DNA of 39,757 nucleotides. Source: a virus. The number at the start of each line of letters is the position of its first letter. Positions within the stretch are counted from its first letter, which is position 1. Shown one piece after another: positions 1 through 39,757 of this stretch. Made by a program: the position numbers and the translations under genes. The DNA lies in IMG/VR virus record IMGVR_UViG_3300028585_000011. One strand, 5' to 3'. The notes beneath the pieces are model-generated. The model searched no databases, was not told the origin of the DNA, and saw nothing but the letters and a program-made list of their open reading frames with translations.

Positions 1-127
1 AGGACGCCAAGGATTATGCTGCGGCAGGCAGTGGGGGATAAACGATGGCGGGATCTGGCGGAGTCTATCGGGCCGGTAACAATCCGGGCGGCTCGACACG
101 CTTCGCAGGGGCCAGCCCGGATGCGTT
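1..127. repeat. Terminal direct repeat, copy 1 (identical to 39631-39757). It marks circular closure or terminal redundancy of a ~39,630-bp unit.
   Basis: Compared base by base: 1-127 (aggacgccaaggattatgctgcgg...cccggatgcgtt) equals 39631-39757. The repeat spans a gene junction (3' end of CDS 39249-39671 and 5' end of CDS 45-2033), so it is duplicated coding sequence rather than a structural repeat. Confidence 0.95.
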
Positions 128-14696: not shown

Positions 14697-14845
14697 TGCC
14701 GCGGGACAAGCGTATCGACAACGCATTGCGCGGGGTCGACTATTACCGCGACATGCGCGATCGGCTCGATAAGCTGTCCCGCACCCGCGCGCTGACCGAG
14801 GCGGAAAGCATCCAGCTCGAGCGGGCAATCTATCATGCAGGGTAG
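14696..14845 (+). CDS. Hypothetical micro-ORF, 49 aa (MPRDKRIDNALRGVDYYRDMRDRLDKLSRTRALTEAESIQLERAIYHAG)
   Basis: Read from the sequence. The ATG overlaps the upstream stop (TGATG at 14694-14698). Its end overlaps the primase start by 11 nt. Confidence 0.35.
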   Translation: MPRDKRIDNALRGVDYYRDMRDRLDKLSRTRALTEAESIQLERAIYHAG

Positions 14846-15938
14846 CGCGCACCGTCCGCAACGTCGCGTCGTCATCGAGCCGCGCGAGCTCGAGCAATTG
14901 TTGCGCGCCGAGACACTGCGCCTTGCGCGCAAGCTGCTGCCGAACGGCATGGAGAATTGCGGCTATTACGAGATCGGATCCGTCGCCGGCGACAAGGGGC
15001 AAAGCCTCAAGATCAACCTGTCGGGATCGCTGAAAGGATGCTGGACAGATTTCTCGGCGCCGAAAGGAACGCTCGAATATAGCGGCGACATGCTCAAGCT
15101 GATCGCCATTACGAAGTTCGGCGGGCGTCTGGGCGATGCGATCTCATGGGCGATCTCGTGGCTGGGTCTCGACGGACTGGATCCGGCGCGGCTGGCGACC
15201 GAGCGGGCGACGGCGAAGCGCGCGGCGATCGCGGCCGATGAAGATCAGGCGGCGCAAGCCGAGAAGCGCCGGCGCAATGCGATGAACCTGTACCTGTCGG
15301 GAACGTCGATCGCCGACACGCCGGCGGAACGCTACCTGATCTCGCGCGGCATCGATCTGCGCGCGCACGGCATGGCGGCGCCGGGCTCGCTCAAGTATCA
15401 GGCGGACGGCGTCTACTGCATGGAGGTACAGCGCAAGCTCCCGTGCATGGTCGCGGCCGTCACGAACATCGAAGGGCGCCACGTCGCCACGCACCGCACC
15501 TGGATCAAAGAAGACGGCAGCGGCAAGGCGGATCTGAAAGAGCCCAAGAAGGCGCTTGGCAAATATCAGGGCGGTTTCATCCCGATCTGGAAGGGCGACC
15601 ACAAGGTATCGATGGCGAACCTTCCCAAAGGCACGCCGATCCTGTGTTCGGAGGGGATCGAGGACGCGTTGACCGCGGCGATCGCGCGGCCGCAACACCG
15701 CGTCATCGCCGCGATCTCACTGTCGAACATCGGCGGGCTTGTGCTACCTGACGGCTGTCCGCTGATCATCCTCGCGCAGCGGGATCCGCCGGGATCGAAG
15801 GCAGAAGCGAGTCTTGAGCAGGCGATCGCGCGGCAACAGGAAGCGGGGCGAGACGTCCGACTGGCGTTTCCGCCTGCGGGAGTAAAAGACATCAACGATC
15901 TAGCTACAAAGAGTGGGGCGCAACGTAATGGCTGGTGA
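14835..15938 (+). CDS. Toprim-domain DNA primase (P4-alpha / plasmid primase-like N-terminal module), 367 aa
   Basis: N-terminal LLPNG...GQSLKINLSGSLKGCWTDFS...GDMLKLI pattern is typical of phage/plasmid primase N-domains. Toprim-like CSEGIEDALT and RDPPGSKAE...VKDINDL follow. Confidence 0.7.
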   Translation: MQGSAHRPQRRVVIEPRELEQLLRAETLRLARKLLPNGMENCGYYEIGSVAGDKGQSLKINLSGSLKGCWTDFSAPKGTLEYSGDMLKLIAITKFGGRLGDAISWAISWLGLDGLDPARLATERATAKRAAIAADEDQAAQAEKRRRNAMNLYLSGTSIADTPAERYLISRGIDLRAHGMAAPGSLKYQADGVYCMEVQRKLPCMVAAVTNIEGRHVATHRTWIKEDGSGKADLKEPKKALGKYQGGFIPIWKGDHKVSMANLPKGTPILCSEGIEDALTAAIARPQHRVIAAISLSNIGGLVLPDGCPLIILAQRDPPGSKAEASLEQAIARQQEAGRDVRLAFPPAGVKDINDLATKSGAQRNGW

Positions 15939-24336: not shown

Positions 24337-24365
24337 TTATAGGCACACCGTAAGGAGACAGTCAA
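24337..24365 (-). promoter_or_regulatory. Sigma-70-type promoter for the leftward recombinase arm
   Basis: The minus strand reads TTGACT (24365-24360), a 17-nt spacer, then CTATAA (24342-24337), about 27 nt upstream of the first RBS. Confidence 0.45.
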
Positions 24366-24607
24366 CAGCGATCTCGGGCGGTGCCCTGGACGATCTGCGC
24401 AACGCTCAACGCGCGCGGCCAGCTCGAACGGCCGCAGGCCGGCTCGAGCGGTGCGGCCGCGCCCTCATCATTCGCTGCCAAGCGAACGCGCGCAAGCAGC
24501 GCCGACGCAGTCGGTGCGACCGGCTTGCGCACAGCTCAATCTCTCCGCGCCCACGCCCGTTCCTTGTGGCCCAAGATCCGTCCCGCGCCCTCTTTTACCC
24601 CGGCCCA

Positions 24608-24636
24608 TTGCTTTCGAACATTCATGAGGCCATTAT
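24608..24636 (+). promoter_or_regulatory. Candidate rightward promoter reading into the iteron array
   Basis: TTGCTT (24608-24613), a 17-nt spacer, then CATTAT (24631-24636). Confidence 0.3.
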
Positions 24637-24662
24637 TGCTCGCAGATCGGGGGTTCGGGATT

Positions 24663-24921
24663 GTTCCCATGTTCCCAGCGATGTTCCCACGGCGGAACAC
24701 GCTAACCCACTGATAATACAGCGAAAATCGGCAATGTTCCCATGTTCCAACGGGAGGCGCGACAGCTACACGCATACACACGCACACTCGCGCGCGCATA
24801 CGCGAGGATTTGTGTGTTTATGTGGGAACATGGGAACATGTAGATATAGGTAAGCGATCTCAATGACTTACGCGTTCCCAATCATGTTCCCAATCGATCA
24901 GGCAGTTGGGAACATGGGAAC
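24663..24921. repeat. Iteron array: 11 copies of GTTCCCA/TGGGAAC (octamer TGTTCCCA) with a central alternating Py-Pu tract; candidate replication origin or pac/TerS binding region
   Basis: Forward copies start at 24663, 24671, 24683, 24736, 24744 (variant GTTCCAA), 24874 and 24886. Reverse copies start at 24823, 24831, 24907 and 24915. There is a 15-bp perfect inverted repeat: 24734-24748 ATGTTCCCATGTTCC and 24825-24839 GGAACATGGGAACAT. An alternating pyrimidine-purine tract runs 24767-24804. Confidence 0.85.
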
Positions 24922-25007
24922 AATTGGCCGCGTCTCGCGACGATCGCGGCGCCGTGCTATGCGGCCTGATCGGACGCGACGACGGCGCGAATAAAGAAAG
25001 GACTTTT

Positions 25008-25559
25008 ATGGACCAGCGGCCCGGACCGATCGAAGACGAGCTCAAAGAGGCCCGCGACACGGGGTTGCTCGCGGATCCCCAGCAGCTCGAGCTGATCCGC
25101 GACCAGATGCCCGATCGTGATGCAGCCACGGCCGTCGAGGTCGCGCGGCGACAGGGTCCAGGGCGGCGCAAGGGCTCGCGGAACAAGCGCAACGCCAAGT
25201 TCCGCGACCAGATCCTTTCGCTTGGTCAGCATCCGGGCATCGCGCTCCAGCGCGCCTATTCGACGCCGGTCGACGTGCTGGCGGCGCAGCTAGGCTGCTC
25301 GCTGCTCGAGGCCGCGCAGCTCGGGATCCGCGCCGCTGCCGAGCTGCTGCCCTACATCGAGGGCAAGCAGCCGGTCACGATCGACCTACGCGAGAAGCAT
25401 GACGTGGTGCTGATCATGGCCGGCGCGCCGGGCGTCGCTGGCGCCGATCTGGAGGCGATCGGCGACGATGTGCGGCAACGTGGCACGCTCGACGACGCGA
25501 TCGATTGGGATGGCGTGACGATCGAGGGCAATCGGATCGTCGACGACGACGGCGCGTAA
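25008..25559 (+). CDS. terS: Putative terminase small subunit, 183 aa
   Basis: ATG at 25008 follows AAAGGA. The ORF-track start (24906) lies inside the iterons. A basic GPGRRKGSRNKRNAKF motif and AAELLPYIEGK resemble alphaproteobacterial phage small terminases. It is the first gene of the packaging/head arm. Confidence 0.5.
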   Translation: MDQRPGPIEDELKEARDTGLLADPQQLELIRDQMPDRDAATAVEVARRQGPGRRKGSRNKRNAKFRDQILSLGQHPGIALQRAYSTPVDVLAAQLGCSLLEAAQLGIRAAAELLPYIEGKQPVTIDLREKHDVVLIMAGAPGVAGADLEAIGDDVRQRGTLDDAIDWDGVTIEGNRIVDDDGA

Positions 25560-39252: not shown

Positions 39253-39671
39253 CGATCGGCAAGGCATTCGGGCAAATCATCGGGGGCGTCGCGCAGCAGG
39301 AAGCCGGCAAATACACGCGCAGCGTCATGCAGACGAACGCGGCGAATGCCGAGGCTGACACGCAAAGCGAGATCGAGCGGCTGCGCACGACGGCGCGGCT
39401 CGCGATGGGGCGACAGGTCAATACGCCGGGCGCCAGCGGGCTCGAGTTCAGCGGATCCGCGCTCGACGCGCTTCGCGAAAGCGGCATCGAAAGCCAGCTC
39501 GAAATGATGCAGACGCGCCGGCAGGGTGCGACGGCCGCAACAGGCTATCGCACACAGGGCAAGATCGCGTATGCGCAAGGCTACAACGGCATGATCCAGG
39601 GCTTTGCCGGCGCCGCGGCCGCGATCGGCGAGGACGCCAAGGATTATGCTGCGGCAGGCAGTGGGGGATAA
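39249..39671 (+). CDS. Small internal virion protein (gp14-like slot), 140 aa
   Basis: ATG at 39249 overlaps the upstream stop (ATGA). The protein is Gly/Ala/Gln-rich (MTIGKAFGQIIGGVAQQEAGKY...), typical of podovirus core proteins. Its last 41 nt are duplicated at 1-41. Confidence 0.55.
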   Translation: MTIGKAFGQIIGGVAQQEAGKYTRSVMQTNAANAEADTQSEIERLRTTARLAMGRQVNTPGASGLEFSGSALDALRESGIESQLEMMQTRRQGATAATGYRTQGKIAYAQGYNGMIQGFAGAAAAIGEDAKDYAAAGSGG

Positions 39672-39757
39672 ACGATGGCGGGATCTGGCGGAGTCTATCG
39701 GGCCGGTAACAATCCGGGCGGCTCGACACGCTTCGCAGGGGCCAGCCCGGATGCGTT
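39631..39757. repeat. Terminal direct repeat, copy 2 (identical to 1-127)
   Basis: See copy 1. Bases 39675-39757 re-read the first 83 nt of CDS 45-2033. Confidence 0.95.

What the first reader, a model, noticed from the sequence alone, without database searches (positions are those of the whole stretch)
24663..24921. Eleven TGTTCCCA iterons around an alternating Py-Pu core: candidate P4-type origin
**The array.** The largest non-coding gap (24311-25007) lies between divergent arms. It holds 11 copies of GTTCCCA/TGGGAAC within 259 bp, mostly as head-to-tail doublets with 8-bp periodicity. There are seven forward and four reverse copies.

**Its centre.** Doublets at 24734-24748 and 24825-24839 form a perfect 15-bp inverted repeat. 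The ~76-bp spacer between them contains a 38-nt alternating pyrimidine-purine tract (24767-24804, CA/CG type, with one phase break). AT-richer stretches flank the tract (24711-24733 and 24841-24870).

**Why an origin.** As I recall, satellite phage P4 ori and crr are built from the octamer TGTTCACC, which the C-terminal domain of the P4 alpha primase-helicase binds. This genome's only replication genes are a split P4-alpha-like Toprim primase and helicase (14835-17769), and its octamer shares TGTTC with the P4 one.

**Alternative.** The array ends 86 bp upstream of terS, so it could instead be a pac/TerS recognition array. It could also serve both roles.
Basis: partly seen in the sequence, partly recalled or inferred. 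Interest (0 to 1): 0.72.

Follow-up and report, generated by a model that had tools for sequence, protein, structure and literature searches.

The report
Iteron replication origin beside terS
A 260-bp cluster of eleven short repeats in a circular ~39.6-kb phage genome is most likely the replication origin read by the phage's own helicase, an arrangement already known from phage satellites, although a role as the DNA-packaging start site is not excluded.

Summary
Nine exact and two one-mismatch copies of TGTTCCCA lie in 24662-24922, with one exact copy elsewhere. A perfect 15-bp inverted doublet pair flanks a 76-bp centre. That centre holds the window's longest alternating purine-pyrimidine tract.

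About 70 of 80 phages with a homologous helicase carry one array of the same design. Each lineage has its own iteron, nearly always N-GTT-xxxx, a pattern that P4's TGTTCACC also fits.

The helicase folds as a D5/SaPI-Rep-type SF3 helicase. Iteron type follows the helicase when terS and terL are controlled for. It does not follow TerS once the helicase is controlled for.

TGTTCCCA arrays also abut unrelated DUF927 or VapE primase-helicase genes in other elements.

My best reading is a SaPI/PICI/P4-like iteron origin (confidence about 0.6). The closest described match is the SaPI/PICI origin.

The main rival is a pac site (about 0.22). It rests on one fact: the array always stays just upstream of terS, while its distance from the helicase gene varies from 65 bp to 6.9 kb. 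No binding or replication was tested.

The parts
24580..24661 (+). Conserved left-flank block. It has a T-run (a likely remnant of the early-operon terminator), then CCCGGCCCATTGCTTTC (a -35-like TTGCTT), and ends in GGGGG just before the first iteron.
   Evidence: It aligns across 16 relatives, with invariant CCC..CCC..G....C columns. The standard sigma-70 scan found no promoter here.
24662..24699 (.). Left outer iteron cluster. Forward copies of TGTTCCCA start at 24662, 24670 and 24682. A degenerate reverse copy lies at 24692-24699.
   Evidence: The same pattern of three forward copies and one reverse copy is seen in L011, L032, L034, L047, L048 and L037.
24700..24734 (.). Left spacer, richer in A+T (ctaacccactgataatacagcgaaaatcggcaa).
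   Evidence: Relatives share a GAAATC-type motif at this position.
24735..24750 (+). Left inner iteron doublet, TGTTCCCA TGTTCCAA, pointing toward the centre.
   Evidence: With 24823-24838 it forms the perfect 15-bp inverted repeat.
24751..24822 (.). Central region. It holds the 38-nt alternating Py-Pu tract (24767-24804) with a GC hairpin (24787-24806), followed by a short T-rich stretch (gatttgtgtgtttatg). I propose it as the site of strand opening.
   Evidence: single-strand DNA fold -29.6 kcal/mol, z = -5.3. CG/CA-type alternating centres are conserved in high-G+C relatives. Lower-G+C elements have (TA)n or AT-rich centres instead.
24823..24838 (-). Right inner iteron doublet: two exact TGTTCCCA copies on the minus strand, pointing toward the centre.
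24839..24872 (.). Right spacer, richer in A+T (gtagatataggtaagcgatctcaatgacttacg).
   Evidence: Relatives share a TAAGT...TGAA motif at this position.
24873..24922 (.). Right outer iteron cluster. Forward copies start at 24873 (CGTTCCCA) and 24885. A reverse doublet occupies 24907-24922.
24989..25001 (+). GAATAAAGAAAGG motif just before the terS start codon. It may be ribosome-binding-site context or a -10-like element.
   Evidence: GAATAAA(C)TAG is conserved 70-90 bp to the right of the array, both in relatives where terS follows directly and in relatives where about 700 bp of non-coding DNA follows.
25008..25559 (+). Small-terminase-like gene (183 aa) carrying an invariant AT-hook-like RGxGRPxGxxNKR motif.
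   Evidence: It has no Pfam family and matches only phrog_15261, of unknown function. Homologues always lie upstream of TerL. There is a weak HMG-I/Y AT-hook hit.
14835..15938 (+). Primase (DUF7146 plus Toprim_3).
15913..17769 (+). SF3 D5-like helicase and the proposed initiator. Public gene calls start it at 15928, giving 613 aa. Its C-terminal ~140 aa (about 17335-17766) is the proposed iteron-reading domain.
   Evidence: The AlphaFold2 model has pLDDT 86. Foldseek matches ASFV PrimPol, MPXV E5, vaccinia D5, SaPI5 primase-helicase and NrS-1 at E = 4e-7 to 1e-5. Columns that covary with the iteron are enriched in residues 471-618.

Best explanation
The array is the phage's replication origin. 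It is of the kind used by self-loading SF3 primase-helicases such as SaPI/PICI Rep and P4 alpha.

**Proposed mechanism (inferred).**
1. The C-terminal domain of the helicase (15913-17769) binds the TGTTCCCA iterons.
2. The two inner doublets point toward each other. They position two helicase hexamers on either side of the 72-bp centre.
3. The centre is an alternating purine-pyrimidine tract plus a short T-rich stretch. It takes the place of the AT-rich melting region seen in lower-G+C elements and is where the strands open.
4. The separately encoded Toprim primase (14835-15938) then primes synthesis.
5. The outer iteron clusters raise local helicase occupancy.

**What is shown:** the anatomy, its conservation, the helicase fold class, and co-inheritance of iteron type with the helicase.

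**What is inferred:** binding, hexamer loading, melting at the centre, and any origin activity.
For: 1. **Uniqueness.** The array is unique and highly non-random in the window.
2. **Recurrence.** About 70 of 80 IMG/VR loci with a helicase homologue carry one ~250-bp array of 7-12 iterons with the same layout. Each lineage has its own iteron, nearly all of the form N-GTT-xxxx (example L058). P4's annotated TGTTCACC repeats fit the same pattern.
3. **Position.** In 46 of these loci the array starts 65-700 bp after the helicase stop codon. The P4 crr likewise starts 46 bp after alpha, and SaPI origins lie immediately downstream of rep (PMC9371898).
4. **Match to the published SaPI origin.** PMC9371898 describes 6-12 iterons, half on each side of a central region, with at least two on each side pointing in opposite directions. 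PICIs have two iteron sets flanking an AT-rich region (PMC6092414). The layout here matches.
5. **Helicase fold.** The helicase model matches D5-type SF3 helicases, including the SaPI5 primase-helicase 7OLA.
6. **Co-inheritance with the helicase, not TerS.**
   - Partial Mantel: iteron similarity versus the helicase core region (residues 50-450), given terS and terL, r = 0.17, p = 0.001. For the helicase C-terminal region (470-613), r = 0.135, p = 0.0045.
   - Iteron similarity versus TerS, given the helicase, r = 0.05, p = 0.17.
   - The nearest helicase neighbour has the same iteron in 27-29 of 54 loci, against 18-19 of 54 for TerS.
   - Discordant pairs point the same way. L069/L084 share ACTTCCCA and have 71% identity in the helicase C-terminus, but only 40% in TerS and TerL. 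L071 and L074 versus L082, and L063 versus L133, behave alike. Conversely, TerS proteins 58-67% identical go with different iterons, and there the helicase C-termini are only 23-36% identical.
7. **Covarying columns.** The top 5% of iteron-covarying alignment columns make up 11% of helicase residues 471-618. They make up 2.8% of the rest of the helicase, 6.5% of TerL, and 0 of 59 columns in the TerS N-terminal half.
8. **Unrelated elements.** A search by the octamer doublet alone found TGTTCCCA arrays abutting DUF927 or VapE primase-helicase genes in seven unrelated lineages. Several of these have no terS nearby.
9. **TerS motif.** The only conserved DNA-binding-like motif in TerS is an invariant AT-hook. 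An invariant motif cannot explain lineage-specific GC-rich iterons.
Against: 1. **Distance from the helicase.** In this window the array lies 6.9 kb from the helicase gene and 87 bp from terS.
2. **Anchoring to terS.** Across relatives the distance from array to terS is fixed (about 50-300 bp, or about 750-880 bp). The distance from the helicase varies from 65 to 6900 bp.
3. **Rearranged genomes.** In L110 and L120 the array stays with terS or terL, away from the helicase.
4. **The centre is not AT-rich.** It is 58% G+C.
5. **No fold match for the reader domain.** The C-terminal domain model (pLDDT 92) has no significant PDB match, so a winged-helix origin-binding fold is not demonstrated.
6. 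**No domain-specific signal by Mantel.** The helicase C-terminus predicts iterons no better than the helicase core does. The covariation signals are modest overall (r = 0.1-0.3), and TerL also keeps some residual signal.
7. **Contig ends.** Two contigs (L007, L009) end inside the central tract. That could mark a physical DNA end.
8. **GC skew.** It is uninformative here.
Confidence: 0.6

Rival explanations
1. The array is the packaging recognition site, either a pac site or a cosB-like site. TerS oligomers would bind the repeats on both sides, and TerL would make the first cut in the central tract, as in SPP1 (pacL, pacC, pacR). A dual origin-plus-pac role is a sub-case.
For: - The array ends 87 bp before terS.
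- In roughly 70 relatives it always lies just upstream of terS, or upstream of a conserved leader that precedes terS, whatever its distance from the helicase.
- It travels with terS or terL in the rearranged genomes L110 and L120.
- In group B phages the same octamer doublets lie 300-400 bp upstream of an unrelated Sf6-type TerS.
- The SPP1 pac site also has repeats on both sides of a cleavage region around the terS start (PMC4737164).
- The circular assembly is compatible with headful packaging.
- Contigs L007 and L009 end inside the central tract, and L023 and L038 end about 140 bp outside their arrays.
- The TerS AT-hook could bind the A+T-richer spacers.
Against: - Iteron type shows no association with TerS once the helicase is controlled for (r = 0.05, p = 0.17; r = -0.04 when terL is also controlled).
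- No iteron-covarying columns fall in the TerS N-terminal half.
- The same TGTTCCCA iteron occurs with TerS proteins only 23-29% identical by alignment-column identity. Those proteins also have a different insertion architecture (L063, L133).
- TerS proteins 51-54% identical by tblastn go with unrelated iterons (L103, L105).
- L020, L028, L029, L031 and L039 have arrays next to helicase genes and no terS nearby.
- If the array were pac, an SF3 initiator would be left with no candidate repeated binding site anywhere in the window.
Confidence: 0.22
2. The array is an upstream regulatory region of the late (terS) operon. A lineage-specific regulator, or the helicase acting as a transcription factor, would bind the repeats to time late transcription.
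For: - A conserved promoter-like block lies on the left, and a conserved GAATAAA(C)TAG motif on the right, just before terS or before the conserved leader.
- The array has a fixed position relative to the start of the late operon.
- It sits between divergent gene arms in the window.
Against: - No sigma-70-like promoter was found by the scan.
- Eleven or twelve sites arranged symmetrically around a structurally labile centre is not a typical operator layout.
- The same design abuts helicase genes in elements that have no late operon beside it.
- No candidate regulator gene co-occurs with the array. The small ORF 24164-24311 has homologues in only a few relatives.
Confidence: 0.07
3. The array consists of sites for another DNA transaction. 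Candidates are the serine recombinase at 22373-22978 (res or inversion sites), a plasmid-type partition centromere, or a host factor such as LexA or DnaA.
For: - A resolvase/invertase-type recombinase lies 1.7 kb away.
- The repeats contain GTTC, the half-site of the alphaproteobacterial SOS box (own knowledge).
Against: - Most relatives that carry arrays lack the recombinase within the fetched loci. Among the loci compared, only L050 has a homologue.
- No ParA or ParB was found among the genes scanned.
- The GTTC spacings are N4 and N8, not the N7 of the SOS box.
- Iterons differ between lineages that probably share hosts, which argues against a conserved host factor.
Confidence: 0.03

Closest known systems
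SaPI and PICI replication origins (Rep or Pri-Rep plus ori)
   Same: - The initiator is a self-loading SF3 helicase, and the primase is encoded just upstream of it.
- There are 6-12 short iterons in two sets around a central melting region, with at least two on each side pointing in opposite directions. Iterons are lineage-specific (PMC9371898, PMC6092414).
- The window helicase model matches the SaPI5 primase-helicase 7OLA.
- In 46 relatives the array directly follows the helicase gene.
   Different: - The iterons here are octamers, not penta- or hexamers.
- The centre is a GC-rich alternating Py-Pu tract rather than AT-rich.
- In this window the array is 6.9 kb from the helicase and 87 bp from terS.
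- The host element is a complete tailed phage with its own terminase, not a satellite.
- A winged-helix fold for the helicase C-terminal domain is not shown.
Satellite phage P4 ori and crr, bound by the alpha primase-helicase
   Same: - Octamer iterons of the same N-GTT-xxxx form (TGTTCACC against TGTTCCCA), in mixed orientation and as close doublets.
- crr lies 46 bp downstream of the alpha gene.
- The helicase belongs to the D5-like SF3 class.
   Different: - There is no detectable sequence-profile homology beyond Walker A.
- Primase and helicase are separate proteins here.
- There is a single array rather than ori plus crr, and no type 2 repeats.
- Similarity to the P4 alpha origin-binding domain (1KA8) was not found.
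SPP1/SF6 pac site (pacL, pacC, pacR). P1 pac is cited from memory only.
   Same: - Repeated boxes lie on both sides of a central region at the terS start, over a few hundred bp (PMC4737164).
- The location is immediately upstream of terS.
   Different: - Here the repeats covary with the helicase, not with TerS.
- The same design occurs beside helicase genes that have no terS nearby.
- No cleavage data exist.
pRN1 ORF904 replicon
   Same: It has a primase, SF3 helicase and C-terminal DNA-binding protein, and the essential cis region lies just downstream of the gene (PMC2777425, PMC4234260).
   Different: No iterons were found in pRN1. It is an archaeal plasmid with a prim-pol type primase.

Membership tests
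SaPI/PICI-type Rep-iteron origin | The element encodes a self-loading SF3 (D5/Rep-like) helicase with an adjacent primase. | tested here: met
   Foldseek of the AlphaFold2 model (pLDDT 86) matches D5, E5, ASFV PrimPol and SaPI5 7OLA at E = 4e-7 to 1e-5. The primase has DUF7146 and Toprim_3 domains.
SaPI/PICI-type Rep-iteron origin | There are 6-12 short iterons in two sets, with at least two on each side of the centre pointing in opposite directions. | tested here: met
   There are 11 copies, plus one degenerate copy. The inner doublets are inverted and flank a 76-bp spacer.
SaPI/PICI-type Rep-iteron origin | The central region is AT-rich. | tested here: not met
   The centre is 58% G+C and holds a 38-nt alternating Py-Pu tract. 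Only a ~16-bp T-rich stretch is present. Lower-G+C elements with the same iteron do have AT-rich or (TA)n centres.
SaPI/PICI-type Rep-iteron origin | [quoted passage not shown] | tested here: not met
   In the window it is 6897 bp downstream. The feature is met (65-700 bp) in 46 related loci.
SaPI/PICI-type Rep-iteron origin | The Rep C-terminal winged-helix domain binds the iterons, and pri-rep-ori replicates autonomously. | not testable with these tools
   Only indirect evidence exists. Covarying columns are enriched in residues 471-618. The Foldseek search with the C-terminal domain model was uninformative.
P4 ori/crr system | The initiator is homologous to P4 alpha: fused Zn-ribbon/Toprim primase, SF3 helicase and a 1KA8-type winged helix. 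| tested here: not met
   hhalign aligns only 45 columns around Walker A, at 9.9% probability. The genes are split. No 1KA8 hit was found.
P4 ori/crr system | Type 1 octamer TGTTCACC. | tested here: not met
   The window iteron is TGTTCCCA, which shares 5 of 8 positions (TGTTC). The P4 octamers were verified in NC_001609.
P4 ori/crr system | Two separated cis sites (ori and crr). | tested here: not met
   The window has a single cluster.
pac site of SPP1/P1 type | The site is located at or just upstream of terS, with repeats flanking a central region. | tested here: met
   The array ends 87 bp before the TerS-like gene. The TerS identity is positional only.
pac site of SPP1/P1 type | The repeats are the recognition sites of the cognate TerS. 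| tested here: inconclusive
The comparative proxy is negative (partial Mantel r = 0.05, p = 0.17; 0 of 59 N-terminal columns). However, the TerS alignments are short and divergent.
pac site of SPP1/P1 type | The genome is packaged by headful, starting at this site (terminal redundancy, read starts). | not testable with these tools
   The circular assembly with a 127-bp overlap is compatible with this but not specific to it. No reads are available.

The most novel reading that the evidence does not exclude
The array is a combined replication and packaging hub. The helicase reads the GC-rich iterons to fire the origin. The AT-hook of TerS binds the two conserved A+T-richer spacers in the same 260 bp. 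The conserved flanking promoter-like motifs place both events in the leader of the late operon. Origin firing, late transcription and the first packaging cut would then be physically coupled. This would explain why the array is inherited with the helicase yet is positionally locked to terS.
Probability: 0.12. Interest if true: 0.7.

Novelty: new variant of a known kind. Interest (0 to 1): 0.42.

Why it matters
If this is the origin, it extends the SaPI/PICI/P4 logic to a large family of complete temperate phages. That logic is a self-loading SF3 helicase plus a lineage-specific iteron origin. The family has several hundred members in public data, and many are prophages of Sphingomonas-type bacteria.

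It would also show that in high-G+C genomes an alternating purine-pyrimidine tract can take the place of the AT-rich melting region.

The family offers more than 25 natural iteron variants built on a constant GTT core, each paired with its helicase sequence. That is a ready data set for working out how these initiators read DNA, and for designing orthogonal replicons.

The unresolved tension is a concrete, testable question about how replication and packaging modules are joined. The array is inherited with the helicase but anchored to terS.

Tried and rejected
- **DNA similarity.** Searching the gap against GenBank phages found no match.
- **Literature search for the octamers.** It returned only primers and unrelated hits.
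- **Rfam.** No hits on the window gap or on the related L058 leader.
- **Promoter scan.** No sigma-70 promoter was found. One terminator-like hairpin lies inside the central tract.
- **GC skew.** The local minimum near 24-25 kb coincides with a switch in gene orientation, so it is uninformative.
- **Alphaproteobacterial LexA box (GTTC-N7-GTTC, own knowledge).** The spacings here are N4 and N8.
- **DnaA box.** It does not match by eye.
- **Serine recombinase sites.** Arrays occur without the recombinase in most relatives.
- **Sliding-window Mantel scan along the helicase, TerS and TerL.** It was inconclusive, with r = 0.1-0.26 for all three proteins.
- **Shared-6-mer definition of 'same iteron'.** It was too lax.
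- **Foldseek of the helicase C-terminal domain.** No PDB match. The only BFVD hit was an uncharacterised Synechococcus phage protein.
- **TerS family against Pfam and the PDB.** Nothing was found except a weak AT-hook hit.
- **RNA structure in the conserved class-2 leader.** The RNAalifold structure was weak and showed no covariation support.
- **Apparent 378-aa ORF over the L008 array.** I judged it spurious.

Full report
**1. Observation**

The sequence at 24662-24922 holds nine exact TGTTCCCA octamers and two one-mismatch copies. Seven are forward and four reverse.

The 7-mer GTTCCCA occurs 14 times in the window, against 3.0 +/- 1.9 expected, and ten of those copies lie in 259 bp. A twelfth, degenerate reverse copy sits at 24692-24699, where relatives have a full iteron.

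The inner doublets form a perfect 15-bp inverted repeat around a 76-bp spacer. The 38-nt alternating Py-Pu tract at 24767-24804 is the longest in the window; the next is 22 nt, and simulations reach at most 29.

The only correction is that the tract's interruption is a substitution, not a phase shift.

The window itself is a circular assembly of 39,630 bp with a 127-bp overlap.

**2. Context**

- To the left is a small minus-strand ORF (24164-24311).
- To the right is a 183-aa gene (25008-25559). It has no Pfam family, but its homologues always lie upstream of a BcepC6B-like TerL. TerS is thus a positional assignment.
- The TerS family has an invariant AT-hook-like motif, RGxGRPxGxxNKR.
- The only recognisable replication genes are a Toprim primase (14835-15938) and the following 618-aa protein.
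- The AlphaFold2 model of that protein (pLDDT 86) matches D5/E5, ASFV PrimPol, NrS-1 and the SaPI5 primase-helicase.

**3. Relatives**

*Search by octamer doublet.* A search of viral contigs for the doublet found about 35 contigs with clustered copies.

- One group shares the TerS-like gene and shows the same architecture almost base for base in layout. The order is outer cluster, spacer, inward-pointing doublet, CG/CA alternating centre, inward-pointing doublet, spacer, outer cluster, then terS.
- In unrelated elements the same octamer arrays abut DUF927 or VapE primase-helicase genes (L012, L020, L028, L029/L031, L039, L044, L056). Their centres are AT-rich or (TA)n.
- Some of these elements have no terS nearby.
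- Another group has the doublets upstream of an unrelated Sf6-type TerS.

*Search by helicase family.* A search with the helicase family (537 homologues, several in Sphingomonas and Rhizorhabdus genomes) gave 80 loci.

- About 70 of them carry one ~250-bp array of 7-12 iterons.
- Each lineage has its own iteron, nearly always N-GTT-xxxx.
- A Sphingomonas prophage shows the identical layout with GGTTCCA.

**4. Which protein reads the iterons?**

*Position favours terS.*

- The distance from array to terS falls into two tight classes.
- The distance from helicase to array ranges from 65 bp to 6.9 kb.
- In the rearranged genomes L110 and L120 the array stays with terS or terL.

*Inheritance favours the helicase.*

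| Test | Helicase | TerS | TerL |
|---|---|---|---|
| Nearest neighbour has the same iteron | 27-29 of 54 | 18-19 of 54 | 22 of 54 |
| Partial Mantel r against iteron similarity | 0.17 (core, p = 0.001) and 0.135 (C-terminus, p = 0.0045), given terS and terL | 0.05 (p = 0.17), given the helicase | 0.115 (p = 0.0075), given the helicase |
| Share of top-5% iteron-covarying columns | 11% in residues 471-618; 2.8% elsewhere | 0 of 59 in the N-terminal half | 6.5% |

- Recombinant-like pairs share the iteron and the helicase but not the packaging genes (L069/L084; L071 and L074 versus L082; L063/L133).
- The converse pairs share TerS at 58-67% identity but have different iterons and divergent helicase C-termini.

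These signals are consistent but modest. The C-terminal domain is no better a predictor than the helicase core in the Mantel test.

**5. Comparison with known systems**

- *P4.* The GenBank record annotates TGTTCACC 'type 1' repeats in ori and in crr, and crr begins 46 bp after the alpha gene. However, the helicase family shows no profile homology to alpha beyond Walker A. The confident C-terminal domain model (pLDDT 92) finds no PDB match. There is also only one array.
- *SaPI/PICI.* The published description of SaPI origins fits the anatomy closely (PMC9371898; also PMC6092414 for PICIs). It specifies 6-12 iterons directly after rep, half on each side of a central region, with at least two on each side pointing in opposite directions, read by the Rep C-terminal domain, and two hexamers loading on either side. 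Two things differ here: the centre is GC-rich and alternating, and the array is displaced from the helicase gene.
- *SPP1 pac.* This site, with repeats flanking a cleavage region at the terS start, is the closest model for the rival (PMC4737164).

**6. Verdict**

- The best-supported reading is an iteron origin for the phage's SF3 helicase (confidence about 0.6).
- A pac site is the serious rival (about 0.22).
- A late-operon regulatory array is less likely (about 0.07).
- Other DNA-site roles are unlikely (about 0.03).

Nothing here demonstrates binding or origin activity.

The kind of element is known. The GC-rich alternating centre, the fixed placement in front of terS, and the family-wide catalogue of iteron variants make it a variant worth a bench test rather than a surprise.

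Noticed in passing
window 1-127 and 39631-39757: The two window ends are identical over 127 bp, so the window is a circular assembly with a 39,630-bp unit. The join falls at a gene junction.
   Followed up: yes
window 25008-25559 (residues ~48-62): The TerS-like protein carries an HMGA-type AT-hook motif (RRQGPGRRKGSRNKR). It is invariant across the family as RGxGRPxGxxNKR. The only PDB hit is a weak one to HMG-I/Y (E = 0.2).
   Followed up: partly
L058 13709-14347; L063 2268-2961; also L065, L075, L087, L090, L092, L104, L112, L133: In one class of relatives a conserved 600-750-bp stretch with no convincing ORF lies between the array and terS. Its invariant blocks include GGAATGGCGGATTTCNGCCGTTTTC, two ATGTTGGAAGG copies 15 bp apart, an AGCCTGNCAGGCT hairpin and three GGGCCGGGG motifs. 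It has no Rfam hit, and the RNAalifold structure is weak with no covariation support. Its function is unknown. A leader, or the real pac region of that class, is possible.
   Followed up: partly
window 24580-24661: An ~80-bp block left of the array is conserved in 16 relatives. It contains a T-run, then CCCGNGCCCNTTGCNTTC, and ends in a G-run. It could be a terminator remnant plus a promoter reading into the array.
   Followed up: partly
window 24989-24999 and the equivalent position in relatives: The motif GAATAAA(C)TAG lies 70-90 bp right of the array. It is conserved whether or not terS follows directly, so it may be a -10-like promoter element rather than just ribosome-binding-site context.
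   Followed up: no
window 22373-22978 (minus strand): This is a small serine recombinase (Resolvase N-terminal domain plus HTH_23; PHROG 'DNA invertase') in the minus-strand block between the helicase and the array. A homologue occurs in L050. Its target sites were not sought.
   Followed up: no
L007 (contig end 19 bp past the inner doublet) and L009 (contig ends inside the central tract): Two contigs from the same metagenome, representing different phages, break inside or at the edge of the central alternating tract. This could reflect a physical DNA end, or poor sequencing and assembly of that tract.
   Followed up: partly
L029 3920-4156, L031 9444-9680: Elements encoding a 934-aa Zn-ribbon/Toprim/DUF927 primase-helicase carry 9-12 TGTTCCCA copies about 108 bp after its stop codon. 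A CA/CG alternating tract lies at one edge. The layout resembles P4 crr and there is no terS nearby.
   Followed up: partly
window 24787-24806: A terminator-like GC hairpin (CTCGCG...CGCGAG) followed by a T-rich tail lies inside the central tract, on the plus strand.
   Followed up: no
L110 1370-7051: The gene order here is array, terS, primase, helicase, terL. In this relative the primase-helicase pair therefore sits between terS and terL.
   Followed up: partly
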